Under the pieces are notes generated by a model. That model searched no databases. It saw only the letters and a program-made list of their open reading frames with translations, and had not been told where the DNA came from. DNA of 64,000 nucleotides from Escherichia phage vb_EcoM-VR5, in sequence record NC_028881.1; one strand, 5' to 3'. Position numbers and translations under genes: made by a program. Positions within the stretch are counted from its first letter, which is position 1. Each line of letters starts with the position of its first letter. Of the stretch, positions 14,662 through 54,535 are shown piece by piece.

Positions 14662-15183
14662 TTAATAACCTCGGTCCTGACGAGCAAAGTTCTCGGCATT
14701 TTTCAGGTAATACAGTTTAAAGATTTCTTCAGCAGTAAGTCCAAGACCCTGGAACATGTTCAGAACGAAATGGAGAATATCAATCATTTCAAATTTAATT
14801 TCGAGCTGGTCTTCAGGAGAGAGTTCGTCGATACGACGATTACGGAATTCAGCATGCTGAGCTTTCCAAGGCTTCCAGCAACTTGAAGCAGCTTTCTCAC
14901 CATTGCTCATACCACCAAGAGAAGTCAGAAGTTCACGGAATTCATCATCAATATAATCTTTCTGATTACGCAGCCAATCAACAACTTCACCTGCAGTAGC
15001 CAAATCATCAGGGTGACGGTTATATTCAGGTTTATCTTTAGCCAAACGGACCTGTAAAGATTTCTGCATATCAAGCATAACCTGCAGTGGGTCTTTATCT
15101 TCGTGAATCAAGGCATTAAAATAAGCTTCCTCAGCTTTATCAACGCCAGCAATCAAACCACTACACTCATTAAAATGTGCCAT
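14662..15183 (-). CDS. 56: dCTP pyrophosphatase (gp56, MazG-like)
   Basis: 173-aa ORF; size and position as T4 gene 56; RBS AGGAAA. Confidence 0.8.
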   Translation of the reverse strand: MAHFNECSGLIAGVDKAEEAYFNALIHEDKDPLQVMLDMQKSLQVRLAKDKPEYNRHPDDLATAGEVVDWLRNQKDYIDDEFRELLTSLGGMSNGEKAASSCWKPWKAQHAEFRNRRIDELSPEDQLEIKFEMIDILHFVLNMFQGLGLTAEEIFKLYYLKNAENFARQDRGY

Positions 15184-15187
15184 TATA

Positions 15188-15844
15188 TTATTTCCTATTA
15201 AAGTTTTCTATCATTCGTCGATAACAAATATCAGGATATCCATTATCGACAGCTATTTTATTAAATTTGGTGCGTTTAGGTTTATTATTATAAACCCATA
15301 ATTCATAAAGCGCATCATAACTATCCCATATTTCTCCTCGCCTAGGATTTGGTAAACCGTATCGAGGTGAATTTTTACCGCTAAATCTTCCTTTTCGAGC
15401 TTTACTCATATTAGCCTTGGCTTCATCGGATATAATTTTATCTTTATGAGCTAGACGCATTTTGGCTTTAGTTTCTTCTGGGGTCTTTTTGCCTTTAATC
15501 CATGACGGCTTGCCATATCTAGGATTATTTTCACCTGTAACTAATAGTGAATTATTTTCCCTTAATGATGCTATAGTTCTGCTAGTTAATTTAACTCCTT
15601 TATTATATCTCATTAAATTAACGGCATGATGCAGACCTTTTACTTCAGGATACATTTTTGTTAAAAGCCTATGGGCTATAAAGTGCTCTCTTGGTAATAA
15701 AGCCACCAAATTATTTTTATCATCGGAACCATTCATACATTTGGGTACAATATGGTGTTCTTCTGTATAATATGGTAAGGACCGCTTGGTACCTCTTAAT
15801 TTTCCATTAGATATTAATTCATTGTATATTTTTTCATAGTTCAT
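15188..15844 (-). CDS. HNH homing endonuclease (freestanding, Mob-like) with NUMOD-type C-terminal DNA-binding repeats
   Basis: 218-aa ORF; HNH motif EEHHIVPKCMNG...NLVALLPREHFIAH; AT-rich; no SD upstream. Confidence 0.8.
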   Translation of the reverse strand: MNYEKIYNELISNGKLRGTKRSLPYYTEEHHIVPKCMNGSDDKNNLVALLPREHFIAHRLLTKMYPEVKGLHHAVNLMRYNKGVKLTSRTIASLRENNSLLVTGENNPRYGKPSWIKGKKTPEETKAKMRLAHKDKIISDEAKANMSKARKGRFSGKNSPRYGLPNPRRGEIWDSYDALYELWVYNNKPKRTKFNKIAVDNGYPDICYRRMIENFNRK

Positions 15845-20923: not shown

Positions 20924-21246
20924 TTCCACCACCTCTTAGATTTAATTTTATCCAGTTCTTCTTGTATTTGCATTGTAACACATTTTTCTACATGAAGCGC
21001 TAGCTCTTCTTTTCGGTCTTCGGAAGGTGTTCCGAAATCAACCGACACTTTTCCATCTTTCTCAATAACAATATTCATCACATAAACGATGTGAGCAGTG
21101 CCATCGGGTAAAGTAAGCATAATTTCCTGCTTAACAGAACCCATTGACTTACGGATTATATCTAATGATTTCTCATAATACAGAGGGTCATAGTGACCCT
21201 CTTCAGTATCTTTAACAAAATTATCTAAATCAGATAAATCAGTCAT
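20917..21246 (-). CDS. hypothetical protein in the position of T4 gene 40
   Basis: 109-aa ORF between uvsX and 41. Confidence 0.55.
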   Translation of the reverse strand: MTDLSDLDNFVKDTEEGHYDPLYYEKSLDIIRKSMGSVKQEIMLTLPDGTAHIVYVMNIVIEKDGKVSVDFGTPSEDRKEELALHVEKCVTMQIQEELDKIKSKRWWKW

Positions 21247-22411
21247 TTAAATCCATCTCTTCTAAATCGTTTTCGATATCAGCAGCGCTTTGAGCGTCCC
21301 CACTCAATTTAACTGCAACGTTCTTAGAGACTCGAGAGTTAATAAGGTCGTTCACCGCATCGTCAACTTCTTTAATAGAATTAATTGCACCAAGCTTATA
21401 CTTATTCTCGATTGCTGCACGGAACGGAGCATGTTTAAACAGTGGTCCCCAGAACTCGACACAATCAGTAGCTTTAGCGCGCCATGATTTTTCTTCTTGA
21501 ACCATTTCACCTGTGGTTTCGTCAAGAAATGCACGATTATACCAGCCAGCTTTAGGTTTGACGACAAAACCAATTTCAGTGGCCATTTCAAGCAGACCAC
21601 TAAACGGATCGATACCACCTTCAAAGTTCACGGTAATTGGGAACGTTGATTTCTCTTTAACCGTACGAGATTTCTCTGCTTTCAAGGTGAAGTCATAACC
21701 GGTGAGCTCAGTACCATCTTTAACCTGGCGTTTAGAAATAAAGAACACGGTAGAAGCAGAATACAGAATACCAGTACCACCACCCATAATCTCTTTAGGA
21801 TACATTCCACCAATTTCCATAGCCGTGTGGTTAATTGCTACGCAAGGGATATCCTTGATGGTCAGATATGGGGTAACGATACGGAACAAAGATTTCAGAG
21901 ACTTAGCACGAGTCATATCACCTACAACTTTCTCGTTCAAAGCATCTTCGGTTTCTTTCTTAGAAGCTGTGTTACCAATGGAGTCGATAAATATAATAAC
22001 CTTTTCGCCACGGGTAATTTCTTCTAATTGGTTAGTCATGTCAACCTTCAGTTGTTCGACTGACTGGATTGGTGTGTGGACCACACGTTCCAGGTCAACA
22101 CCCATTGAACGGAAATAAGATTCTGAAGCACCAAACTCAGAGTCATAGAACAAACAAATTGCGTCTGGATATTTCTTCATATACGCCGCGACCATAGTTA
22201 ATCCAAACAGAGTTTTAAAGTGTTTAGATGGAGCAGCAAAGATTGTCAAACCTGATTGCAAGCCTGCATTCAACGCACCGCCTAATGCAATATTAAGCAT
22301 AGGAATACGAGTAGGAACTTCATCACGCCCATTAAACAATTTGGATTTGGTCAGGTCGGCGGTCATTTTAGAAGTAGAAGCTTTAATCAAACGGGATTTT
22401 AAATCAGACAT
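21239..22411 (-). CDS. uvsX: UvsX recombinase (RecA-like)
   Basis: 390-aa ORF; RecA fold; T4 UvsX is 391 aa. Confidence 0.9.
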   Translation of the reverse strand: MSDLKSRLIKASTSKMTADLTKSKLFNGRDEVPTRIPMLNIALGGALNAGLQSGLTIFAAPSKHFKTLFGLTMVAAYMKKYPDAICLFYDSEFGASESYFRSMGVDLERVVHTPIQSVEQLKVDMTNQLEEITRGEKVIIFIDSIGNTASKKETEDALNEKVVGDMTRAKSLKSLFRIVTPYLTIKDIPCVAINHTAMEIGGMYPKEIMGGGTGILYSASTVFFISKRQVKDGTELTGYDFTLKAEKSRTVKEKSTFPITVNFEGGIDPFSGLLEMATEIGFVVKPKAGWYNRAFLDETTGEMVQEEKSWRAKATDCVEFWGPLFKHAPFRAAIENKYKLGAINSIKEVDDAVNDLINSRVSKNVAVKLSGDAQSAADIENDLEEMDLND

Positions 22412-22454
22412 TATATTTTTCCATAGGCATCATTATATTTTACTCACGTTTTAA

Positions 22455-22480
22455 GATAGGGTAATTATATCACTTCACAA
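22455..22480 (-). promoter_or_regulatory. extended -10 promoter upstream of uvsX
   Basis: TGATATAAT followed by TACCCTATC. Confidence 0.4.
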
Positions 22481-22488
22481 TTACAGCA

Positions 22489-23382
22489 TTAAAGGACCAC
22501 GTCCTCATAACGTGGCATTTCGTACTCGGAATGAATATGGGCACCAAAATAAATGAATTCAGCCAAACCAGGATGGAATACTAAACCCGGGTTCTCATGA
22601 TAAATGATATGTGGTCTTGATTTCAGAATCTGGTAATATTCAACCTTACTCGGTTTGAATTTAATAATCTCTACATCAGGACGATAGTCTCCACGTTTAA
22701 ATGAATCGTTGGGGTCGGTGATATAGAGTCGAGCACCTTCAGCCGCAGCTCGGTCTACAACTCGTTCGAATTGATAGCATTTATCAGAGATACGAAATGG
22801 GTGAAAAATACCATCAATTTTAATAGGCGCTAGACCATCAGAGTAACGCTCAATTACTGCCGGATTAATTACCTTTTGGTCTACAAAAATCTTATCAGAG
22901 GATGCACCTCGTGACACCAGGACGTCTTTCTGGCATTGATTCAGGACTGTAGTATAAATCGAACGTTCGACTGAAGAAACATCAATATCAATAAACTCGT
23001 CGATATAATAACGAGGAACTTCAGGGTCCATTGTGATATTAAAGTTGAATTGTACAGTCTGGGCACCATCATAACCTGTGATATCAGTTACCAACCCTGA
23101 GCAGTCGTAGTATTCGATTAATGAATCGACTACGAACTCGTTTTCAGACCAGAAATGTTTACGGGTTTCATAAGCATTTTCTTTATACCAAAGTGGCACA
23201 AAATTCAGTTCAGGGAATAACTCGATGCACTGATTGATATCGCTCGAATTTCTAGGATAAGCCAGATAATCACCTGGCCGAGCACGGTTTAAATGGAGTT
23301 GAAAATTGCCGTCCTTAAGGACAGCATATTCACCCGTTTCGTAACTACGCATACTGAAAATAGGAACGATAAACAGACTCAT
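22489..23382 (-). CDS. unknown protein occupying the T4 beta-glucosyltransferase slot; candidate DNA-sugar transferase
   Basis: 297-aa ORF; no resemblance to recalled T4 beta-gt; ATGA-coupled to hydroxymethylase gene. Confidence 0.7.
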   Translation of the reverse strand: MSLFIVPIFSMRSYETGEYAVLKDGNFQLHLNRARPGDYLAYPRNSSDINQCIELFPELNFVPLWYKENAYETRKHFWSENEFVVDSLIEYYDCSGLVTDITGYDGAQTVQFNFNITMDPEVPRYYIDEFIDIDVSSVERSIYTTVLNQCQKDVLVSRGASSDKIFVDQKVINPAVIERYSDGLAPIKIDGIFHPFRISDKCYQFERVVDRAAAEGARLYITDPNDSFKRGDYRPDVEIIKFKPSKVEYYQILKSRPHIIYHENPGLVFHPGLAEFIYFGAHIHSEYEMPRYEDVVL

Positions 23383-24077
23383 TTCAGAAAACCTCGGACG
23401 TAGTCAAAATCACGTTCAAATACGTGTGCACTAACCATGGTGTGAGAATACGTACCCAAACCAACACCACACTGCTCTGCAATAAAGGCCATCAGTTTAC
23501 CCTGCAGATAGAAATCAAGCTGCATAACAACGGCACAGTTCTGTGAACGCATATGGGTATGTGCATACAAACGACCGTCACGAATGTAATACGTCACCGA
23601 ATCAGTACAAGGATATTCTAGGGATTCGTCAGAATCAAGGAGAGCTTGGTCTTGTTCTTGGAGAATCTGGAACACAACTCTTCGCGAGTTAGGCTTTTCT
23701 TTAAGCTCTTTAAGTAGGGCTGGGAGCTGGGCCACAATTCGAGGTCCATAGAAAGTGTTGAAGTTTGCAGGCAATACGTCACTTTTCGGCTTATCAATGA
23801 ACTTAGCAACATTAGGGTATTCCTTAAATGCTTCGGAGGCATCAGTACCACCGGAAATCATAAACTTCCAAAAGGATTCAGCGTATTCATAACTAATACG
23901 ATTGATGCGTGGGTCGGTGAACTTGAACGTGCTAGCATCAAGAACTTCTACTGAAGCCGAACCGACTTCATAACAACGGCCGATACGAGAATCTACTGCA
24001 AACTGCGGAGCTTCAAGGATTTCTTCGTTCATTTGTTTAAATGCATTTTCAAAACTAACAGCGGTAATGTGTTTCAT
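23379..24077 (-). CDS. 42: deoxycytidylate hydroxymethylase-like enzyme (thymidylate synthase fold)
   Basis: 232-aa ORF; PNSRR, PCTD nucleophile and Asp 31 residues after Cys align with T4 gp42 NPDSRR, MCTNT, D179; overall divergent. Confidence 0.7.
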   Translation of the reverse strand: MKHITAVSFENAFKQMNEEILEAPQFAVDSRIGRCYEVGSASVEVLDASTFKFTDPRINRISYEYAESFWKFMISGGTDASEAFKEYPNVAKFIDKPKSDVLPANFNTFYGPRIVAQLPALLKELKEKPNSRRVVFQILQEQDQALLDSDESLEYPCTDSVTYYIRDGRLYAHTHMRSQNCAVVMQLDFYLQGKLMAFIAEQCGVGLGTYSHTMVSAHVFERDFDYVRGFLK

Positions 24078-24610
24078 TTATTCACCTTATTTTCAATATA
24101 TTCATTCAGACGTTTTAATTCTACCATATCAACATTAAGCAAATTATTATGGCCGTCATGATTTAAGATTTTAAACACGTTTTCAAAACATGTTTCGTAT
24201 TGTCTGACAGTTAGGTTGAACTCATCTTTAGTTAATTTAATAAGGTCGTCTTCGAAGTCTTCGTCTAACGGATTACGAGTTAAAATAACCTCGATAATGT
24301 TAAATTCAGATTTGAACCCTTTCCAATCTTCCAGTTCTACATAAGGGTCCATTTCACCACGAAGGAATCCCGAGTAAACAATATTACTAGGATACCCACG
24401 GTCTAAGATATAGACAAAATTTGGGTCTAAAAACTTATACAGAGTTTCAACTAGAGCCTTATCATTATCAGTTCCTAATGAAATACATTTGCCATTAATC
24501 TTTTTAGGAAAATCAATAAGGCGGTATTTCTTATCGGATAACAGATTTTTAATTAAAGTAGACTTCCCGGAATTATCCGGGCCGTCTATAACAATGATTT
24601 TTGGATTCAT
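24074..24610 (-). CDS. P-loop nucleotide kinase, thymidylate-kinase-like
   Basis: 178-aa ORF; Walker A IVIDGPDNSGKST; DRGY-type motif YILDRGYPSNIVYSG. Confidence 0.7.
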   Translation of the reverse strand: MNPKIIVIDGPDNSGKSTLIKNLLSDKKYRLIDFPKKINGKCISLGTDNDKALVETLYKFLDPNFVYILDRGYPSNIVYSGFLRGEMDPYVELEDWKGFKSEFNIIEVILTRNPLDEDFEDDLIKLTKDEFNLTVRQYETCFENVFKILNHDGHNNLLNVDMVELKRLNEYIENKVNK

Positions 24611-24990
24611 GGATGATAGGCCTTATAACTATCAAGAGTTCCTTCACGAACCATTTCTTTAAAGTGGTCGGGCCGGATTGCTCGGTCATCGATGATAAAA
24701 GTATAACTCGGCTTGTGTGTAAGCAAATTGTGATATTTCAATCCAATTTTTTCAAGGTTCTTAACCAATGCCGGAACTACTTCAACCAATATTCGGCCAG
24801 GGCCACATGAAGTCATACCACGGGCGGTGAACAATGTAATCTCACACCCTTCATCATAAAGCTTGTTAATCATGGACACCATTTCAGTGTCCGGTTTAAA
24901 GTTTTCATAATCACGGTCATGATTCCAAATCGTGATTGTGTTATCGATATCAAAACATAAATGCGGCTTATTTTCTACTCGATGCGACAT
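24607..24990 (-). CDS. HAD-superfamily phosphatase
   Basis: motif I CFDIDNTIT, motif II TLFTAR, motif IV FIIDDRA; start set at ATG overlapping upstream stop (TAATG). Confidence 0.65.
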   Translation of the reverse strand: MSHRVENKPHLCFDIDNTITIWNHDRDYENFKPDTEMVSMINKLYDEGCEITLFTARGMTSCGPGRILVEVVPALVKNLEKIGLKYHNLLTHKPSYTFIIDDRAIRPDHFKEMVREGTLDSYKAYHP

Positions 24991-26663
24991 TAAATTTTCT
25001 TCCATTGTTTGTGGAGTTCAGTAGAACCTGTAGGTTTATATTTTACACCAGTTTCCTGGTCAAGCAAAACCCACTTATCAGGACAACGAGTAATAATTTG
25101 TGCCGTAATAGGGTCACGAACTTCATCAACGAATTCACCTGTAATAAGCTTACGCTTACGAGGGTGCCGCTTCAGCAGCACACTCAGTTGGTACAAACCG
25201 TTGTAATATGCGCCAAGAGCTTTCAGAGGATTATTCTTAAAGTAACCTGCTAGCGCCATCCAAATAACAGCAATCCAGAGCTTGTGCTTAAATGTACACA
25301 TCGGAATATCGTCTAAAGGCATGACCTTTTCAATATCAACGAATACACGAGTTCCATTACGGGTTAAGCCACCCCATAGAGGGTCTGAGTTAAATTTATC
25401 ATAGCCATCGATAGAATAAAGCACCTTAGCTTCGTCATAAATCGCGGGGCCTTTAGAACTATTACCGAAATAACCACGTGGGTCGATGATTTTAATATCA
25501 CCTTCGTCCGACAGCATAATATTACTGTAGTGCGGGTCGCCATGAATAAGTTGATACGGTTCTTTATGTTCAGACAGAATTTCTAGTGCATGACGAAGAA
25601 GTTTTTCAGGGTCTCCTACCTTGAAGTCGTTAACATGGGTGATGCCCTGTGGAGAAAAGCCTTCAATCAATCCAGCAATAGAAGCATTACGAATCAGGAC
25701 CTTGTCCAATACTTCTTTCTTAACATCAGAATACCATTGCTCATCAGATGGGTTATCGATAGTTCCACCAAATGAACGTAATGCACTAATGACCTTATAA
25801 ACCATGAGCACTTTAGTTTCTTTAGACATAAACCGGTAGGCATCTGCCATGGTGCGACCAAAGATACGTTCCATTTTAATGAATTCACCTGGCGCAAAGT
25901 CTACAATGCTCGGAACGAATTCAGAATCAATAGAATTATACCAATTGATTTCTTTAGATTGAATTTCTTTACCTAATTCGTTGGTTGGTACTTTAATAGC
26001 CAGATTCTCAGTGAATTCTAATTTATTAAATTCACGATTAATTTCAGAATCTTCATGGGCCTTGGCCAGCTTCAGTTTATCACCAACATCAACTACAAAG
26101 TCCAGCTTACGTTCAGACAAATAAACCATTGAATCCAGGTTATCCGCAAGGTCTTCACCATAATTAGAACGGTCGAATCCTGTCCAATTCGCCACCTGAT
26201 ACAAACCAACTACACCGCCACCTGTACCAATTTCACGTAAGTACGGTTCTTCAAATGTAAACCGACAATCGGTCCCATAGGTATAACAGTAGTCGTTATC
26301 CCACTCAACTTTATGGCCTTCAGGAATTATGTCACACCAGTTAAATAGAACGTTATGCCCAATAATATCTTCAGCAATGCAATCGATAGCATGGGCCGAA
26401 CCGTTAGCAACATCCACATTACGAATAGTGAACTTGGGCTTATCGCCTGTAATCATATTAATCGATTTAATATAGCCTTTAACGAGGTCGTTAAATTTAC
26501 TGTGAATAACCAGAATAATTTCATCTGATTGGTTACTATACAAATCATACAAATGCTTTAATACCGTATGTTGTTTATAGTTAACCAATACCTTAGGGAT
26601 TTCATTAGTAATTGGATACAACCGTGAGCCAAGACCTGCGCCTAAAATAACAACCTTTTTCAT
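24990..26663 (-). CDS. bifunctional sugar-phosphate nucleotidyltransferase / APH-ChoK-like kinase
   Basis: N-terminal GAGLGSRLYPIT (NTP-transferase signature); C-terminal HGDPHYSNIML and IIDPRG (Brenner-type kinase motifs); RBS GAGGAA before ATG 26663. Confidence 0.75.
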   Translation of the reverse strand: MKKVVILGAGLGSRLYPITNEIPKVLVNYKQHTVLKHLYDLYSNQSDEIILVIHSKFNDLVKGYIKSINMITGDKPKFTIRNVDVANGSAHAIDCIAEDIIGHNVLFNWCDIIPEGHKVEWDNDYCYTYGTDCRFTFEEPYLREIGTGGGVVGLYQVANWTGFDRSNYGEDLADNLDSMVYLSERKLDFVVDVGDKLKLAKAHEDSEINREFNKLEFTENLAIKVPTNELGKEIQSKEINWYNSIDSEFVPSIVDFAPGEFIKMERIFGRTMADAYRFMSKETKVLMVYKVISALRSFGGTIDNPSDEQWYSDVKKEVLDKVLIRNASIAGLIEGFSPQGITHVNDFKVGDPEKLLRHALEILSEHKEPYQLIHGDPHYSNIMLSDEGDIKIIDPRGYFGNSSKGPAIYDEAKVLYSIDGYDKFNSDPLWGGLTRNGTRVFVDIEKVMPLDDIPMCTFKHKLWIAVIWMALAGYFKNNPLKALGAYYNGLYQLSVLLKRHPRKRKLITGEFVDEVRDPITAQIITRCPDKWVLLDQETGVKYKPTGSTELHKQWKKI

Positions 26664-26723
26664 TATCTGTTCCTCAAGTGAATGTAGGTACATTATACAC
26701 TATTTTTAATAAATTTCTATTGC

Positions 26724-27224
26724 TTAAATCTTATCTTTACCGTATTCCATGCATTGTTCTACTGCAGCGGGCACTTTGGTCTTAAGCTTATTGATTTGTT
26801 TCTTATAATCACGGGCCTTATCAAAGCTTTCGGTTTCTAGCATTTCGTAATAACGAGCTTCATGGATAGAAACCTGCAGATTGATATGGTTTACACACAT
26901 AGCATACAGTTTCTGCTTTTTGTACAAATCATCTTGTCGCTTCATTTCTGCCTGGTGTTTGGCTAGTACCGCTTCTCGCTTAGACTCTTGTTCACGTTGG
27001 AATTCTATTTCACGAGCCGCATATTTACCGCAGTTATTTCCGCATTGGTTGTTAGCACGAGTATAAGTAATGCCTGAACCTGCACGGAACTTAACTTCAC
27101 CATCATACTGCTTCTGTTCAGCAGCAATACGAGCTTTACCTACTTCATCAGCCGTAACAACTTCACCGTATTGGACCGCACAACCAGAGAGTAATAATGA
27201 CGCTGCGATAATTAGCTTTTTCAT
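26724..27224 (-). CDS. putative lipoprotein (166 aa)
   Basis: signal peptide with lipobox LLSGC. Confidence 0.6.
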   Translation of the reverse strand: MKKLIIAASLLLSGCAVQYGEVVTADEVGKARIAAEQKQYDGEVKFRAGSGITYTRANNQCGNNCGKYAAREIEFQREQESKREAVLAKHQAEMKRQDDLYKKQKLYAMCVNHINLQVSIHEARYYEMLETESFDKARDYKKQINKLKTKVPAAVEQCMEYGKDKI

Positions 27225-35743: not shown

Positions 35744-36762
35744 CGTGTAACCTCATTATAAAGTTGGGCAGCCATAGTCTTAAGGGCTTTAAGGTCATCT
35801 TCAGTATGGCCATCAGGAAGAGCATCGATATAATCATACATCATATCCAAGAGCGACTTAACTTCGTCTTCCTCTTCAGAATCATCAATATCAACGCTGT
35901 TATCTACCTTAGACACAATACGTAAAGAGTGGACCACCTTTTCAAGTTCAGATTCAAACTTAGTAAGCCCGTCATCGATTTTATCGACTATAACACGAAC
36001 TGCAATATTTGTAAAATCTTTGTAATCGATGGTTGCATTAGGATAATGAATCTTACGATGCCAACAGGTTTCATTGATAACAAAATCCATTTTATGGGTT
36101 TCAGTATCGAAAATCCAGAAACCGCGAGGGTCGTTCTCATCGCCTGCAGTAAGGGTCCATGGAGTACCGATGTACTTAACGTTTGCGGCATCAGAAATAG
36201 TATGGAAGTGGCCAGACCAAACTTGCTTATACTTTTTAAGGAAATCAGGTTCTAAACCGTGAGATTTCATTCCTTTATAGAAATAGAACCCATTTAATTC
36301 CCAGTGACCAATACAGAAATCTGCTGTAGTATTTTTGATATGTTCCATGATATCAGTCGTGTTTTCTTCACACATCCACGGAATCAAATCAATTTCGGTG
36401 CCATCAAAGTTTACTGTTGTAGGTTTCTCGATAACCTTGATATGGTCATATTTACCGAGAACTTCAGAAGCGGCATTCGGCGTTAAGGTATTTTTGTAGT
36501 GCATATCATGATTACCAACAACGGTATACATGGTAATGCCATTAGCTTTAAGCAAATCAGAGATTTCGCGAGCGAATTCCATACACTTATGGGTAATTGC
36601 TTTACGAACGTCAAAGATATCACCGTATTGAATCCATACAGTAATGCCATTTGCTTTAGAATAATCAATAGCGTCTTGGATACCTTGGCGTTGGATATTT
36701 TGTACCCACACATCATCGGCTTTCACTCCAAGGTGCCAGTCACCTGTGTTTAATATTTTCAT
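35740..36762 (-). CDS. 47: recombination endonuclease subunit gp47 (Mre11/SbcD-like)
   Basis: start at MKILNTGDWHLG (phosphoesterase motif); track ORF has 66-aa upstream extension. Confidence 0.85.
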   Translation of the reverse strand: MKILNTGDWHLGVKADDVWVQNIQRQGIQDAIDYSKANGITVWIQYGDIFDVRKAITHKCMEFAREISDLLKANGITMYTVVGNHDMHYKNTLTPNAASEVLGKYDHIKVIEKPTTVNFDGTEIDLIPWMCEENTTDIMEHIKNTTADFCIGHWELNGFYFYKGMKSHGLEPDFLKKYKQVWSGHFHTISDAANVKYIGTPWTLTAGDENDPRGFWIFDTETHKMDFVINETCWHRKIHYPNATIDYKDFTNIAVRVIVDKIDDGLTKFESELEKVVHSLRIVSKVDNSVDIDDSEEEDEVKSLLDMMYDYIDALPDGHTEDDLKALKTMAAQLYNEVTR

Positions 36763-36902
36763 AAGCCAAGCACCGTTATCGCAATGCAAAATAAAATTAT
36801 TGAAATGAACCCGTCTGGAGTGGAAAAGAATCCTATCCAACAAGCTCGTGTGAATGTGTAGAATGCCATGAATAACACGACATATCCTAAAAATAATTCC
36901 AT
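36759..36902 (-). CDS. small hydrophobic peptide (47 aa), translationally coupled to gene 47
   Basis: hand-translated MELFLGYVVLFMAFYTF...; RBS GAGGAGAA; stop overlaps gene 47 ATG (ATGA). Confidence 0.45.
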   Translation of the reverse strand: MELFLGYVVLFMAFYTFTRACWIGFFSTPDGFISIILFCIAITVLGL

Positions 36903-36922
36903 ATGTTCTCCTCAGTTGGTTC

Positions 36923-36949
36923 ATTTTATCATCCCGAATATAAAGCAAA
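36923..36949 (-). promoter_or_regulatory. MotA-box middle promoter upstream of 47.1-like ORF / gene 47
   Basis: TTTGCTTTA box, 12 nt, -10 TAAAAT. Confidence 0.45.
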
Positions 36950-36970
36950 AAAGGAAGCACTAGGCTTCCT
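36941..36970 (-). terminator. rho-independent terminator upstream of gene 47 region
   Basis: aggaagc-ctag-tgcttcct + TTTTTTGCTTT. Confidence 0.55.
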
Positions 36971-37133
36971 TTCCAATTAATACACCGTACAGAGGTTCAC
37001 GATTAGACGTGAACTTGATGGGTTTATAGGTAATAGTACCTTCATTTTCTGCTTTAATACGAGCGGCTTCAAATTGAAGCATCATCTCATTTTTGTCAGA
37101 TTTAATCTTATCAAAATCCGTCGAACTCGTCAT
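36960..37133 (-). CDS. small hypothetical protein (57 aa)
   Basis: hand-translated MTSSTDFDKIKSDKNEMML...; SD AAGGGG; stop overlaps terminator hairpin. Confidence 0.35.
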   Translation of the reverse strand: MTSSTDFDKIKSDKNEMMLQFEAARIKAENEGTITYKPIKFTSNREPLYGVLIGKEA

Positions 37134-37375
37134 TCATATGACCCCTTAAAAATCTGGATGTTCGTCATTCATTAGCCAGCCGTCCATGTTATCATCGCTG
37201 CCACCACTTCTTAAGTTGATGAGAATCCACCCAAACCTTGGCTACAGGCTCAATCTGAAAAATTCCATCAGATAACCTGCCTACCATTTTGTATTCGGTT
37301 TCAGACTGCTTAATACAGATATTACCGTACGAACGAAGTCTGAAAGCGGCTCCAATAAGAAGCCGTTTAAAGGGT

Positions 37376-37687
37376 TTATTTACTAGCGCCATTGATAATT
37401 TCCCAAATCTGTTTACGTGTAGTTTCCCACATAACTCTAACGATTTCATCGGTAGTCGGTTGTCGGTAAATACCACGCAATTTAATTATAGCATATTTGT
37501 AAGCTTCGAAATTGTTTTCGAGAACAGCACCCTGTGCATGTTTATTAAGACGTGTAATTTCACGAGCATTCTTTTTAAGGATTTTAGCAGCCTGTGAATC
37601 GGCTTCTTTAGCATTGTTCTCTTCTAAACGCTTCTGAGCTTCTTCAATCTGCTTATCAGTCAATTGAGAAATGTCGGTGCTTTGCAT
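37376..37687 (-). CDS. hypothetical protein (103 aa)
   Basis: ORF with RBS AAGGA. Confidence 0.55.
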   Translation of the reverse strand: MQSTDISQLTDKQIEEAQKRLEENNAKEADSQAAKILKKNAREITRLNKHAQGAVLENNFEAYKYAIIKLRGIYRQPTTDEIVRVMWETTRKQIWEIINGASK

Positions 37688-37688
37688 A

Positions 37689-37952
37689 TTAATCCTTGTA
37701 ATTCAATTTTATATAAAAATCTTCGTCAGTAACGTGATAGTTATAAGTTAATGTTCCTTTTTCAGTTTTAATTTCTACCGAATCGGGGTGTTTTGGGTCT
37801 ATTACAATAGGAAGTTTGGCAATATCCTTAAGATACATTTTAAGAACATAAGGAATTGCCGAATACTCTCCATCTACTTCTTCTAAAAGGCCTACCAGGT
37901 TAATCTTGAGTTCCATATAAAAAATCCAGCTCACCAACTTTAGATTCAGCAC
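37689..37952 (-). CDS. hypothetical protein (87 aa)
   Basis: ORF. Confidence 0.5.
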
Positions 37953-53237: not shown

Positions 53238-53810
53238 TCAACTCGTTATTTCTATCCAATGCTTCCTGCATAATGACACGTAAGAATCGTTGCCACCTAT
53301 AGAAACTTGGTCGCCATCCTTAATTGCGATACCATTTTGGATACGAGCTGTCATAGTAGCCTTACGTCCACAATGGCACACACCTTTGTACTCAACGAGT
53401 TTATCTGCTGTAGCTAATAATTCAGCAGAGCCAGGAAACAGTTTACCCTGAAAATCAGTTCTTAGACCGTAACACATGACCGGTATATTATAATTATCTA
53501 CTATCTTTGCCAATTGTTTTATTTGCAAAGGTTCTAAGAACTGTGCTTCATCCACAAATACGCAGTGGATATCTTTTTGAGATTCAGCCCAACGATAGAA
53601 CTCGTATAGGTCCATGTCTGGAGTCACTGCATTAGCCTCTTGGCTAATCCCTATACGAGACGAAATTCTATGGCTTGATTCTCTATTATCTATCGCAGGC
53701 TTTAAAAGGAGTACACCCATACCACGTTCTTTATAGTTATGGGCAGCCGTTAGCAATGAAGAGGTCTTCCCAGAATTCATCGCCGCATAGTGAAACATCA
53801 AACTTGCCAT
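53238..53810 (-). CDS. tk: thymidine kinase
   Basis: 190-aa ORF; P-loop AAMNSGKTS; C-terminal Cys cluster. Confidence 0.88.
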   Translation of the reverse strand: MASLMFHYAAMNSGKTSSLLTAAHNYKERGMGVLLLKPAIDNRESSHRISSRIGISQEANAVTPDMDLYEFYRWAESQKDIHCVFVDEAQFLEPLQIKQLAKIVDNYNIPVMCYGLRTDFQGKLFPGSAELLATADKLVEYKGVCHCGRKATMTARIQNGIAIKDGDQVSIGGNDSYVSLCRKHWIEITS

Positions 53811-54535
53811 TTAGATACAATTCCTCTATAAGAACAATCGGGATAACCTTTACTCAAGGCTATCTTTTTAAACATATACGCCGAGGGTTTATTAGATTCT
53901 TCCCATAGTATTTTCAATTCATCATAATATTTCCAAGTCTCATTTCTAATAGGAGAAGGTTTTCCTTTCATTGCGCCCTGTTTACCAAACATAGGATTCT
54001 TTTCACCCTTTTTAGAATCGCTCATGTTTTTAATAGTAGCACATGAATGCTTAAAGCCTTTTAATTTTTTAGAAGCGAGACCTATTTTAGCCTTATGTTC
54101 ATCCGTAAATCCTATTCTATTCGAATAGTGGTTTGCGCCTTTATTAGAAGTGGTATATTTAGAAGCTTCTATTCTCGCAGCACTCCATTTAACTCCTTTT
54201 TTGGACCTGGACATTTTACATTTAGTTAGCAATGATAACTTAGTTCCTTTCTTTTTGCCGCGTCCGCCATCGGCAAAATTTAAAGAATGCTTTCCATATT
54301 TTAATTTAGCTTTTTCTACTAAAGGAACTTCAGCATCGTAAGCTTCATCTTCAGTTTCAAAGAATTTTAATATACGGGTTTTATAAGGGTGCTTTTTGCA
54401 AATATTTTTAACAACAGTGCCACTTCCAAAATACCCATCAGAAAGATTATCAGTAGAATGTTTTCCTACGTAATAATATTTTGCCTTGAGGGTTTTTATT
54501 ACAGTTAAATAATTATAATGGAATTCCTTTACCAT
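53798..54535 (-). CDS. GIY-YIG homing endonuclease (Seg-like) with NUMOD-type C-terminal domain
   Basis: YYYVGKHS...GYFGSG N-terminal motif; C-terminus similar to HNH endonuclease at 15188-15844; RBS AAGAAGG. Confidence 0.75.
   Translation of the reverse strand: MVKEFHYNYLTVIKTLKAKYYYVGKHSTDNLSDGYFGSGTVVKNICKKHPYKTRILKFFETEDEAYDAEVPLVEKAKLKYGKHSLNFADGGRGKKKGTKLSLLTKCKMSRSKKGVKWSAARIEASKYTTSNKGANHYSNRIGFTDEHKAKIGLASKKLKGFKHSCATIKNMSDSKKGEKNPMFGKQGAMKGKPSPIRNETWKYYDELKILWEESNKPSAYMFKKIALSKGYPDCSYRGIVSKWQV

What the first reader, a model, noticed from the sequence alone, without database searches (positions are those of the whole stretch)
22489..23382. Unrelated 297-aa protein in the beta-glucosyltransferase slot, and no alpha-gt between 47 and 55
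The T4 positions for beta-gt (uvsX to 42) and alpha-gt (47 to 55) do not contain recognisable glucosyltransferases. The 47-55 interval holds only small ORFs. The 297-aa protein is co-transcribed with and translationally coupled to the hydroxymethylase, making it the best candidate for a novel hmC-modifying transferase. This rests on synteny, not on a recognised glycosyltransferase motif.
Basis: inference. Interest (0 to 1): 0.65.

Follow-up and report, generated by a model that had tools for sequence, protein, structure and literature searches.

The report
Phage DNA arabinosyltransferase candidate, already described

Summary
The window comes from a Dhakavirus (JS98-like T-even phage). A real 297-aa ORF (22489-23382, minus strand) lies between uvsX and a thymidylate-synthase homolog, with an ATGA stop/start overlap. 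Neither the window nor the complete JS98 genome has a T4 alpha- or beta-glucosyltransferase.

The upstream enzyme is not a hydroxymethylase. It is 80% identical to RB69 gp48, a verified flavin-dependent 5-hydroxy-dCMP synthase, and it carries that enzyme's D169N signature.

So the kind is already known, although transfer activity has not been shown in any paper I could read. One paper reports pyrophosphorylase activity instead.

Dhakavirus details: there is no phage arabinose-5-phosphate isomerase and no second transferase, and the sugar-activating enzyme is a divergent subtype. I predict mono-glycosylated 5-hydroxycytosine DNA. The sugar identity is untested.

The parts
22489..23382 (-). GT1: 297-aa compact GT-B-fold protein, ortholog of RB69 gp46:47, DLP3 gp79 and Thanatos TH1_063. 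Proposed first (alpha) arabinosyltransferase acting on 5-hydroxycytosine.
23379..24077 (-). 5-hydroxy-dCMP synthase homolog (thymidylate-synthase superfamily, flavin-dependent hydroxylase type). This is not a dCMP hydroxymethylase.
   Evidence: 80% identical to RB69 gp48 and 24% to T4 gp42. PDB 9iqu/9iqc/9ir2 E~6e-127, versus T4 gp42 1b49 E=5e-6. Signature L143E, Cys146, D169N, N177D (E. coli ThyA numbering) is present, while T4 gp42 keeps D169. RB69 gp48 activity is shown in Lee et al..
24074..24610 (-). KIN: 178-aa thymidylate-kinase-like P-loop nucleotide kinase (RB69 gp45 / DLP3 gp78 / TH1_064 family). Its substrate is unknown.
   Evidence: phrog_761 'thymidylate kinase' E=2e-39. Weak P-loop/TMK Pfam hits. 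37% identical to RB69 p045 and 40% to DLP2_046. Present next to GT1 in 44 of 51 loci.
24607..25005 (-). HAD-family phosphatase, AfhF / RB69 gp51-like (arabinose-1,5-bisphosphate 5-phosphatase by homology).
   Evidence: 62% identical to RB69 p051. TIGR01689 capsule-biosynthesis phosphatase E=5.5e-14. AfhF role as cited by Lee et al..
24990..26693 (-). BIF: bifunctional sugar-phosphate kinase (C-terminal APH-like domain) and sugar-1-phosphate uridylyltransferase (N-terminal domain), AfhE / RB69 gp52:53-like. The probable true start is the ATG at 26663. It is a divergent 'type B' subtype.
   Evidence: PF00483 E=3e-8 and PF01636 E=1.6e-5. 41-44% identical to RB69 p052/p053. Homologs and JS98 gp042 (557 aa) begin at residue 11. 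Subtype analysis.
26692..26719 (-). Sigma-70-like promoter candidate (TAGAAA-16-TATAAT) upstream of the five-gene cluster.
   Evidence: Consensus scan with 10 of 12 matches. This is a pattern match only; the total number of promoter-like sites does not exceed the shuffled expectation.
14665..15183 (-). gp56 dCTPase/dUTPase homolog. It supplies dCMP and removes dCTP, upstream of the hydroxylation step.
   Evidence: 69% identical to T4 gp56. The role follows from established T4 biochemistry and Lee et al. Table 1 (RB69p028 dCTPase).
36759..37952 (-). The gp47-gp55 interval: five small ORFs (47, 57, 94, 103 and 87 aa) in the position of 47.1 and a-gt.2 to a-gt.5, with no alpha-gt.
   Evidence: ORF list. 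JS98 annotation of the syntenic genes. T4 alpha-gt tblastn finds only noise.

Best explanation
The 297-aa protein is the Dhakavirus member of the GT1 family (RB69 gp46:47, DLP3 gp79, Thanatos TH1_063). It is a small two-domain GT-B glycosyltransferase.

Proposed pathway:
- gp56 makes dCMP.
- The adjacent flavin-dependent thymidylate-synthase homolog hydroxylates dCMP to 5-hydroxy-dCMP.
- 5-hydroxy-dCMP is phosphorylated and polymerised into phage DNA in place of C.
- In parallel, the bifunctional kinase/uridylyltransferase and the HAD phosphatase convert arabinose-5-phosphate into UDP-arabinofuranose. Here the arabinose-5-phosphate presumably comes from the host enzymes KdsD/GutQ, because the phage has no isomerase.
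- GT1 then transfers the first arabinose from the UDP-sugar onto the 5-hydroxyl of cytosine. This most likely happens on DNA after replication, with retention of configuration, giving an alpha ether-linked sugar.

Because Dhakaviruses have no gp3-type second transferase, the DNA is predicted to be mono-arabinosylated.

Shown here: orthology, fold, gene neighbourhood, the hydroxylase-type signature of the partner enzyme, and the absence of other candidate transferases. Inferred: donor, acceptor, stage (DNA versus nucleotide), stereochemistry and sugar identity.
For: Orthology: RB69 p047 and p046 map collinearly onto the ORF at 68% and 65% identity. Their BFVD models superpose on the N- and C-terminal halves with target-normalised TM 0.96 each. 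The ORF is 49% identical to DLP2_045 and 51.5% to TH1_063.

Partner enzyme: 80% identical to the experimentally verified RB69 gp48, with the D169N signature.

Linkage: a TS homolog lies immediately upstream of GT1 in 47 of 51 viral loci. In 45 of the 46 readable cases it is the N169 hydroxylase type, never the D169 type.

The cluster also encodes AfhE-like and AfhF-like UDP-arabinose enzymes.

No other transferase: T4 alpha-/beta-gt, RB69 gp3 and the DLP2 GTs give only noise in the window and in whole JS98, and the ten other large unassigned window ORFs show no GT domain.

Thanatos has the same single-GT cluster and pentosylated cytosine DNA.

The genes are translationally coupled.
Against: No paper I could read shows transfer activity for any GT1 member. 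Lee et al. saw no arabinosylation when individual DLP3 GTs were given UDP-Arap or UDP-Araf and 5hoC-DNA, and they state they cannot tell whether the first arabinose is added to the mononucleotide or to DNA. Brandt et al. report UDP-xylose pyrophosphorylase activity for the ortholog TH1_063 and no transfer, although they tested only non-hydroxylated acceptors.

No GT sequence signature is detectable by Pfam, NCBIfam or hhalign. The Foldseek top hits are UDP-GlcNAc 2-epimerases, which share the GT-B fold.

I found no chemical analysis of Dhakavirus DNA. The phage lacks an arabinose-5-P isomerase, and its sugar-activating enzyme is a divergent subtype, so arabinose is not certain.

He et al. 2026 and Mahler et al. 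2025, which may settle these points, are not in the library.
Confidence: 0.65

Rival explanations
1. Same enzyme family and donor, but the acceptor is the free nucleotide. GT1 arabinosylates 5-hydroxy-dCMP before replication. The co-conserved thymidylate-kinase-like protein (KIN) then phosphorylates the bulky arabinosyl-nucleotide, and the polymerase incorporates it. Only later sugars, in phages that have extra GTs, are added on DNA.
For: TS-GT1-KIN is the conserved core. KIN accompanies GT1 in 44 of 51 loci, usually directly downstream, and this holds even in distant environmental phages that lack all UDP-arabinose genes. TS, GT1 and KIN are translationally coupled here. GT1 is strongly acidic (net charge about -15, family median pI 5.2; T4 beta-gt pI 9.05, T4 alpha-gt 6.1). 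The top structural neighbours use small acceptors, and the acceptors named here (fructose-6-P for SPS, inositol-phosphate for MshA, malate for BshA) come from my own knowledge. Individual GTs were inactive on 5hoC-DNA, and Lee et al. explicitly leave the stage open. The gp1-type dNMP kinase already handles 5hodCMP, which leaves KIN without an obvious job.
Against: All characterised phage DNA glycosylations are post-replicative (T4 paradigm; Lee et al. abstract). Expressing RB69 gp48 with the dNMP kinase puts 5hodC into DNA, so the unglycosylated triphosphate is polymerisable. DLP3 gp76/gp77 act on DNA. Acidity is weak evidence, because T4 alpha-gt is also mildly acidic. KIN could simply be a dedicated 5hodCMP kinase.
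Confidence: 0.2
2. The protein is a UDP-pentose pyrophosphorylase that makes the activated sugar (UTP + pentose-1-phosphate gives UDP-pentose), and another protein carries out the transfer.
For: Brandt et al. (PMC12838424) detected UDP-xylose by LC-MS/MS when purified TH1_063 was incubated with UTP and xylose-1-phosphate, and found no transfer to DNA, dCMP, dCTP or cytosine. TH1_063 is a full-length 51.5% ortholog of the window protein.
Against: The fold is GT-B, not the nucleotidyltransferase fold. The cluster already has a genuine NTP_transferase domain in the 567-aa protein (PF00483), and its HY126 homolog AfhE is reported to be the UDP-arabinose pyrophosphorylase. If GT1 were not a transferase, Dhakavirus and Thanatos would have no detectable transferase, yet Thanatos DNA is pentosylated. 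The negative transfer assays used acceptors without the 5-hydroxyl, so they are uninformative. Carry-over of a host uridylyltransferase was not excluded (my inference).
Confidence: 0.07
3. GT1 is the first-sugar transferase on 5-hydroxycytosine, but in Dhakavirus-type clusters the sugar is not arabinose.
For: No arabinose-5-P isomerase is found in the window or in whole JS98. The bifunctional activating enzyme is only 42-45% identical to those of RB69, DLP2 and Thanatos, which are 52-56% identical to each other. All 10 loci with this subtype lack the isomerase, while all 20 other T4-like loci have it. The GT1 family extends weakly to Rhizobium phages (24.6% identity, E=2e-5), and in Rhizobium phage RL38JI the base-proximal sugar is galactose. 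Distant loci lack arabinose genes altogether.
Against: E. coli makes arabinose-5-P itself through KdsD/GutQ (established knowledge), so a phage isomerase is dispensable. The HAD phosphatase (62%) and GT1 (65-68%) are well conserved relative to RB69. The domain architecture of the activating enzyme is unchanged. Lee et al. group Dhakaviruses with the arabinosylation clusters.
Confidence: 0.15
4. One reading: a novel transferase that modifies 5-hydroxymethylcytosine made by a gp42-type hydroxymethylase.
For: It occupies the same genomic slot as T4 beta-gt and is translationally coupled to a thymidylate-synthase-family enzyme. Older literature listed JS98 as having a gene-42 allele.
Against: The partner enzyme carries the hydroxylase signature (N at ThyA position 169), is 80% identical to the verified 5hodCMP synthase and only 24% to gp42. 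GT1 is never found next to a D169-type enzyme. RB69's 'arabinosyl-hmC' has been re-determined as arabosyl-5-hydroxycytosine, that is arabinosyl-5-hydroxycytosine.
Confidence: 0.02

Closest known systems
RB69 gp46:47 / DLP3 gp79, 'arabinosyltransferase 1' (Lee et al., NAR 2026, PMC13326640)
   Different: In Dhakavirus the kinase-like gene lies upstream of the TS gene instead of downstream of GT1. There is no arabinose-5-P isomerase, no RB69 p049/p050 and no gp3-type second transferase, and the activating enzyme is a divergent subtype. The RB69 gene is split in the database record; here it is intact.
Shewanella phage Thanatos TH1_063 (Brandt et al., AEM 2025, PMC12838424)
   Same: 51.5% identical and 300 aa. 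Same BIF-HAD-TS-GT1-KIN cluster, a single GT, and no isomerase in the fetched 35-kb region.
   Different: Its reported in-vitro activity is UDP-xylose pyrophosphorylase, not transfer. Thanatos has the RB69-type activating enzyme (54%) and a p050 homolog.
T4 beta-glucosyltransferase and alpha-glucosyltransferase
Retaining GT4-type GT-B glycosyltransferases (sucrose-phosphate synthase 6kih, BshA 6n1x, PimA 2gej, MshA 3c4q, WaaG 8b5s)
   Different: Only 297 aa, against 340-500. 9-10% identity. No Glycos_transf_1 / Glyco_trans_4 Pfam signature.
RB69 gp3 / HY126 glycosyltransferase (PDB 9iqz) / Bas46 Aat, the second arabinosyltransferase
   Different: A different family with no profile similarity, and absent from the window and from JS98. 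I equate Aat with the gp3 type by inference.

Membership tests
GT1 family: first 5-hydroxycytosine arabinosyltransferase (RB69 gp46:47 / DLP3 gp79) | Full-length sequence orthology to the named members | tested here: met
   68% (p047) and 65% (p046) identity, collinear; 49% to DLP2_045; 51.5% to TH1_063.
GT1 family: first 5-hydroxycytosine arabinosyltransferase (RB69 gp46:47 / DLP3 gp79) | Encoded next to a 5hodCMP synthase (TS homolog with D169N, N177D, L143E/D) | tested here: met
   ATGA overlap with the TS homolog. Signature E-C-R-N-D. 80% identical to RB69 gp48.
GT1 family: first 5-hydroxycytosine arabinosyltransferase (RB69 gp46:47 / DLP3 gp79) | Cluster encodes UDP-arabinose synthesis enzymes (AfhE-like bifunctional enzyme, AfhF-like phosphatase) | tested here: met
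   PF00483 + PF01636 in the 567-aa protein. HAD protein 62% identical to RB69 gp51.
GT1 family: first 5-hydroxycytosine arabinosyltransferase (RB69 gp46:47 / DLP3 gp79) | Phage-encoded arabinose-5-phosphate isomerase (RB69 gp55 / DLP3 gp83) | tested here: not met
   No hit in the window or in whole JS98 (best E=1.1-5.3, noise). Also absent in the 10 loci with the same activating-enzyme subtype. It is an accessory gene, not a property of GT1 itself.
GT1 family: first 5-hydroxycytosine arabinosyltransferase (RB69 gp46:47 / DLP3 gp79) | Catalyses arabinosyl transfer from UDP-Araf to 5-hydroxycytosine | not testable with these tools
   Needs biochemistry. Not demonstrated for any member in the papers I could read.
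GT1 family: first 5-hydroxycytosine arabinosyltransferase (RB69 gp46:47 / DLP3 gp79) | Virion DNA contains arabinosyl-5-hydroxycytosine | not testable with these tools
   I found no chemical analysis of Dhakavirus DNA.
GT-B fold glycosyltransferases (GT4-like, retaining) | Two Rossmann-like domains with an interdomain cleft | tested here: met
GT-B fold glycosyltransferases (GT4-like, retaining) | Sequence signature of the family (Pfam Glycos_transf_1 / Glyco_trans_4, EX7E motif) | tested here: not met
   No Pfam hit at E<=0.1, no NCBIfam hit, and hhalign to RB69 gp3 (a GT4-like protein) gives probability 0.2%. I did not map the EX7E motif structurally.
T4 beta-glucosyltransferase / alpha-glucosyltransferase | Sequence homology to T4 b-gt or a-gt | tested here: not met
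   tblastn best E=2.7 and 0.033. hhalign probability 0.3% and 0.1%.
T4 beta-glucosyltransferase / alpha-glucosyltransferase | Acceptor 5-hydroxymethylcytosine made by a gp42-type hydroxymethylase | tested here: not met
   The partner enzyme is the hydroxylase type (N169), 24% identical to gp42.
Sugar-1-phosphate nucleotidyltransferases (pyrophosphorylases) | NTP_transferase fold / Pfam PF00483-type signature | tested here: not met
   No such hit for the 297-aa protein, whose fold is GT-B. The signature is present instead in the neighbouring 567-aa protein.
5hodCMP synthase (for the neighbouring gene 23379..24077) | D169N signature with N177D and L143E/D, catalytic Cys, and close homology to RB69 gp48 / the HY126 enzyme | tested here: met
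   The signature is defined in Lee et al..

The most novel reading that the evidence does not exclude
The first sugar is added before replication. GT1 glycosylates free 5-hydroxy-dCMP, and the strictly co-conserved thymidylate-kinase-like protein is the dedicated kinase for the glycosylated nucleotide, so the polymerase incorporates a ready-made glycosyl-dCTP. This would be the first case of nucleotide-level glycosylation in phage DNA hypermodification, and it would explain why the TS-GT1-KIN trio is the invariant core while the sugar-supply genes vary. A weaker related reading is that Dhakavirus-type clusters attach a pentose other than arabinose.
Probability: 0.2. Interest if true: 0.75.

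Novelty: already known. Interest (0 to 1): 0.3.

Why it matters
A 2010 review asked whether RB69 and JS98, which have a gene-42-like enzyme but no glucosyltransferase, carry bare hmC or some other modification. For RB69 the answer came in 2025-2026: arabinosylated 5-hydroxycytosine.

Practical value:
- Many of the phage records that hold this gene still annotate it as 'hypothetical protein' and its neighbour as 'dCMP hydroxymethylase' or 'thymidylate synthase'.
- Dhakaviruses are used in phage-therapy work, and their DNA chemistry determines sensitivity to restriction, CRISPR and type IV systems.

What remains open, at least in the papers I could read, is the biochemistry of the first transfer step and the role of the kinase-like gene. 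A five-gene Dhakavirus cluster with a single transferase is a clean system in which to settle both.

Tried and rejected
Sequence-level searches for a glycosyltransferase signature in the 297-aa protein all came back empty:
- Pfam at E<=0.1.
- NCBIfam.
- phmmer against PDB, which returned only chance C-type lectin hits at E~0.4.
- hhalign of the 50-sequence family profile against T4 alpha-gt, T4 beta-gt and RB69 gp3.
Only the fold revealed the relationship.

I looked for a hidden canonical transferase elsewhere. tblastn with six reference GTs against the window and the whole JS98 genome found nothing. A Pfam scan of the ten other large unassigned window ORFs found homing endonucleases, AAA/STAND NTPases, an RlaP nucleotidyltransferase and DUFs, but no GT.

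I tried to read He et al. (Nat Chem Biol 2026, HY126 Afh pathway), Mahler et al. (Cell Host Microbe 2025) and Zuber et al. (J Bacteriol 2007, JS98 genome). None is held, so I could not learn whether the first transfer step has been reconstituted or whether JS98 DNA resists restriction.

I considered that PDB 9iqz ('phage HY126 glycosyltransferase') might be a solved GT1. It is the gp3-type second transferase instead.

I considered using protein charge to decide between a DNA and a nucleotide acceptor. The family is acidic, but T4 alpha-gt is mildly acidic too, so this is only weak evidence.

Full report
**What is there.** The window is a JS98/JS10-type T-even phage of the genus Dhakavirus. The region 22000-27300 matches Escherichia phage ESCO10 at 95.9% and JS10/JS98 at about 93.5%. 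An IMG/VR contig of 170,473 bp encodes a 100% identical protein (L009). The ORF in the finding is real: 22489..23382, minus strand, 297 aa. It sits between uvsX (21239..22411) and a thymidylate-synthase-family gene (23379..24077), which is the slot T4 uses for segA and beta-gt.

The stop codon of the upstream gene overlaps the ORF's start as ATGA. The same kind of overlap links all five genes from 26693 to 22489. A promoter-like site precedes the first gene, and nothing convincing as a terminator lies inside the cluster. The gp47-gp55 interval holds only five small ORFs, the counterparts of 47.1 and a-gt.2 to a-gt.5. T4 alpha-gt and beta-gt have no counterpart in the window or anywhere in the complete JS98 genome.

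**The neighbouring 'hydroxymethylase' is something else.** The 232-aa protein is only 24% identical to T4 gp42 but 80% identical to RB69 gp48. It matches PDB entries 9iqu/9iqc/9ir2 at E~6e-127, against E=5e-6 for T4 dCMP hydroxymethylase. I take those entries to be the HY126 enzyme, because 9iqz in the same accession series is deposited as 'phage HY126 glycosyltransferase'.

Lee et al. (NAR 2026, PMC13326640) showed that RB69 gp48 and DLP3 gp80 are flavin-binding enzymes that convert dCMP to 5-hydroxy-dCMP using O2. They also showed that RB69 DNA carries arabinose ether-linked to 5-hydroxycytosine, not to hydroxymethylcytosine. They give D169N (E. coli ThyA numbering) as the predictive signature. 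In my alignment the window protein has N at that position, plus L143E, N177D and the catalytic Cys, whereas T4 gp42 keeps D. So the acceptor made in this phage should be 5-hydroxycytosine.

**What the 297-aa protein is.** At sequence level it is an orphan. It has no Pfam, NCBIfam or PDB hit, it falls in a PHROG of unknown function, and it shows no profile similarity to T4 alpha-gt, T4 beta-gt or RB69 gp3. It nevertheless belongs to a large phage family, with 351 phage records and 117 clusters in the protein collection.

RB69 ORF047c and ORF046c map collinearly onto its N- and C-terminal parts at 68% and 65% identity. Lee et al. state that these two are one gene split by a sequencing error, and the intact ORF here corroborates that. 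It is also 49% identical to the DLP2 homolog of DLP3 gp79 and 51.5% identical to Thanatos TH1_063.

**Context supports a role as the first-sugar transferase on 5-hydroxycytosine.** The other cluster genes are as follows:
- a thymidylate-kinase-like P-loop kinase;
- a HAD phosphatase, 62% identical to RB69 gp51;
- a 557/567-aa protein with an N-terminal sugar-1-phosphate nucleotidyltransferase domain and a C-terminal APH-type kinase domain.

As cited by Lee et al., the HY126 homologs AfhE and AfhF convert arabinose-5-phosphate to UDP-arabinofuranose.

Across 51 viral loci that encode a GT1 relative, a TS homolog lies immediately upstream in 47. The exceptions are two contig-end truncations and two of the most divergent relatives. 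In 45 of the 46 readable cases it carries the hydroxylase signature, and never the D169 type. These sequences are related, so this is a consistent association rather than 45 independent events.

No other candidate transferase exists in the window or in JS98. Thanatos, whose DNA carries a pentose on cytosine through an O-glycosidic bond, has the same single-GT cluster.

Because the closest structural relatives are all retaining enzymes, and the base-proximal arabinose in RB69 and DLP3 is alpha-linked, a retaining alpha-transfer is the natural inference.

**What is not settled.** Nobody, in the papers I could read, has shown transfer by a GT1 member.
- Lee et al. saw no activity when individual DLP3 GTs were given 5hoC-DNA and UDP-Ara. 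They say they cannot tell whether the first arabinose goes onto the mononucleotide or onto DNA.
- Brandt et al. reported that TH1_063 makes UDP-xylose from UTP and xylose-1-phosphate.

I rate the pyrophosphorylase reading low (0.07) for four reasons. The fold is wrong for that chemistry. The cluster has its own nucleotidyltransferase domain. Dhakavirus and Thanatos would otherwise have no transferase. The failed transfer assays used acceptors that lack the 5-hydroxyl.

The nucleotide-level reading deserves more weight (0.2). The kinase-like gene is as tightly linked to GT1 as the TS gene is, present in 44 of 51 loci. The trio persists even in distant environmental phages that lack all UDP-arabinose genes. 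GT1 is markedly acidic.

He et al. 2026 and Mahler et al. 2025 may already answer this, but I could not access them.

**Dhakavirus-specific features.** Relative to RB69, the cluster is minimal: BIF-HAD-KIN-TS-GT1. It has no arabinose-5-P isomerase, no p049/p050 and no gp3-type second transferase, either in the window or in whole JS98. This predicts mono-glycosylated DNA and dependence on host arabinose-5-P; E. coli KdsD/GutQ as the source is established knowledge.

The bifunctional enzyme is an outlier subtype, 42-45% identical to the RB69, DLP2 and Thanatos enzymes, which are 52-56% identical to each other. All 10 loci with this subtype lack the isomerase (six Dhakavirus, three loci at about 68% GT1 identity including Klebsiella phage Marfa, and L030). 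All 20 other T4-like loci have it. That leaves some room (0.15) for a different sugar. I found no chemical analysis of Dhakavirus DNA.

**Verdict.** The substrate is wrong (5-hydroxycytosine, not hmC). The family is not novel: it is 'arabinosyltransferase 1' of the 2025-2026 arabinosyl-5-hydroxycytosine literature, which names Dhakaviruses among the carriers. I score the novelty as already known and the interest as 0.3. The residual interest lies in the unproven first transfer step, the unexplained kinase, and the isomerase-less cluster subtype.

Noticed in passing
window 24990-26693 (and loci L009-L014, L016, L018, L019, L030): The bifunctional kinase/uridylyltransferase is a distinct subtype, 42-45% identical to the RB69, DLP2 and Thanatos enzymes, which are 52-56% identical to each other. 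Every locus with this subtype lacks a phage arabinose-5-phosphate isomerase and has the kinase-like gene upstream of the TS gene. GT1, TS and HAD do not show the same discontinuity.
   Followed up: partly
L040 7799-10576, L042 7539-10588, L047 7798-10576, L061 6426-9576: Distant environmental T4-like phages carry a compact block: Flavodoxin_2 (FMN/quinone-reductase-like, E 1e-13 to 1e-19), then the N169-type TS homolog, GT1 with a C-terminal extension (about 340-350 aa), and the kinase-like gene. No UDP-arabinose genes lie within 9 kb. A phage-encoded flavin reductase next to the flavin-dependent hydroxylase is independent support for that chemistry.
   Followed up: partly
window 15188-15844 (-) and 53798-54535 (-): An HNH + NUMOD3 homing-endonuclease-like ORF (218 aa) lies between gp56 and gp61, where JS98 has only about 290 nt of spacer and T4 has segF/dam. 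A second NUMOD3 ORF (245 aa) lies at 53.8 kb. A 2010 review listed JS98 and JS10 as having no homing endonuclease genes. No T4 dam homolog is found in the window or in JS98.
   Followed up: partly
window 26724-27224 (-): A 166-aa ORF with a lipoprotein signal (MKKLIIAASLLLSGC) and unknown function (phrog_1754; JS98 orf43) occupies the position, between the sugar-activation gene and gp43, where RB69 has its arabinose-5-P isomerase.
   Followed up: no
window 26663-26693 (-): The mechanical ORF start of the 567-aa gene (ATG at 26693) is probably too far upstream. Homologs, the PHROG profile and JS98 gp042 (557 aa) all begin at residue 11 (ATG at 26663), which also leaves room for the promoter-like site at 26719-26692.
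   Followed up: partly
window 22412-22488 (-): The 77-nt spacer between the GT1 stop and the uvsX start reads AATGCTGTA, then 12 nt, then TATAAT. It resembles a T4 MotA-box middle promoter, so uvsX may have its own promoter downstream of the modification cluster (the motif is recalled from knowledge of T4 and was not tested).
   Followed up: no
L001 6598-7498 and 10095-11781 (RB69 record NC_004928): The RB69 reference record still splits both the GT1 gene (p046/p047) and the bifunctional gene (p052/p053) into two ORFs. The intact, collinear Dhakavirus genes, and the two half-models that superpose on one GT-B model (target-normalised TM 0.96 each), support Lee et al.'s statement that these splits are sequencing errors.
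   Followed up: yes
public phage records matched: Annotation is inconsistent across records. The TS homolog is called 'dCMP hydroxymethylase', 'deoxycytidylate 5-hydroxymethyltransferase' or 'thymidylate synthase'. The HAD phosphatase is called 'phosphoheptose isomerase'. GT1 is almost always 'hypothetical protein', with one Acinetobacter phage record calling it 'glycosyltransferase'. In ESCO10 the listed features appear shifted relative to the sequence.
   Followed up: no
BFVD hit A0A5P8PH66 (Serratia phage Muldoon): A 308-aa protein with only 19% identity but a query-normalised TM of 0.76 to the model looks like a remote member of the GT1 family outside the set reached by sequence search.
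   Followed up: no
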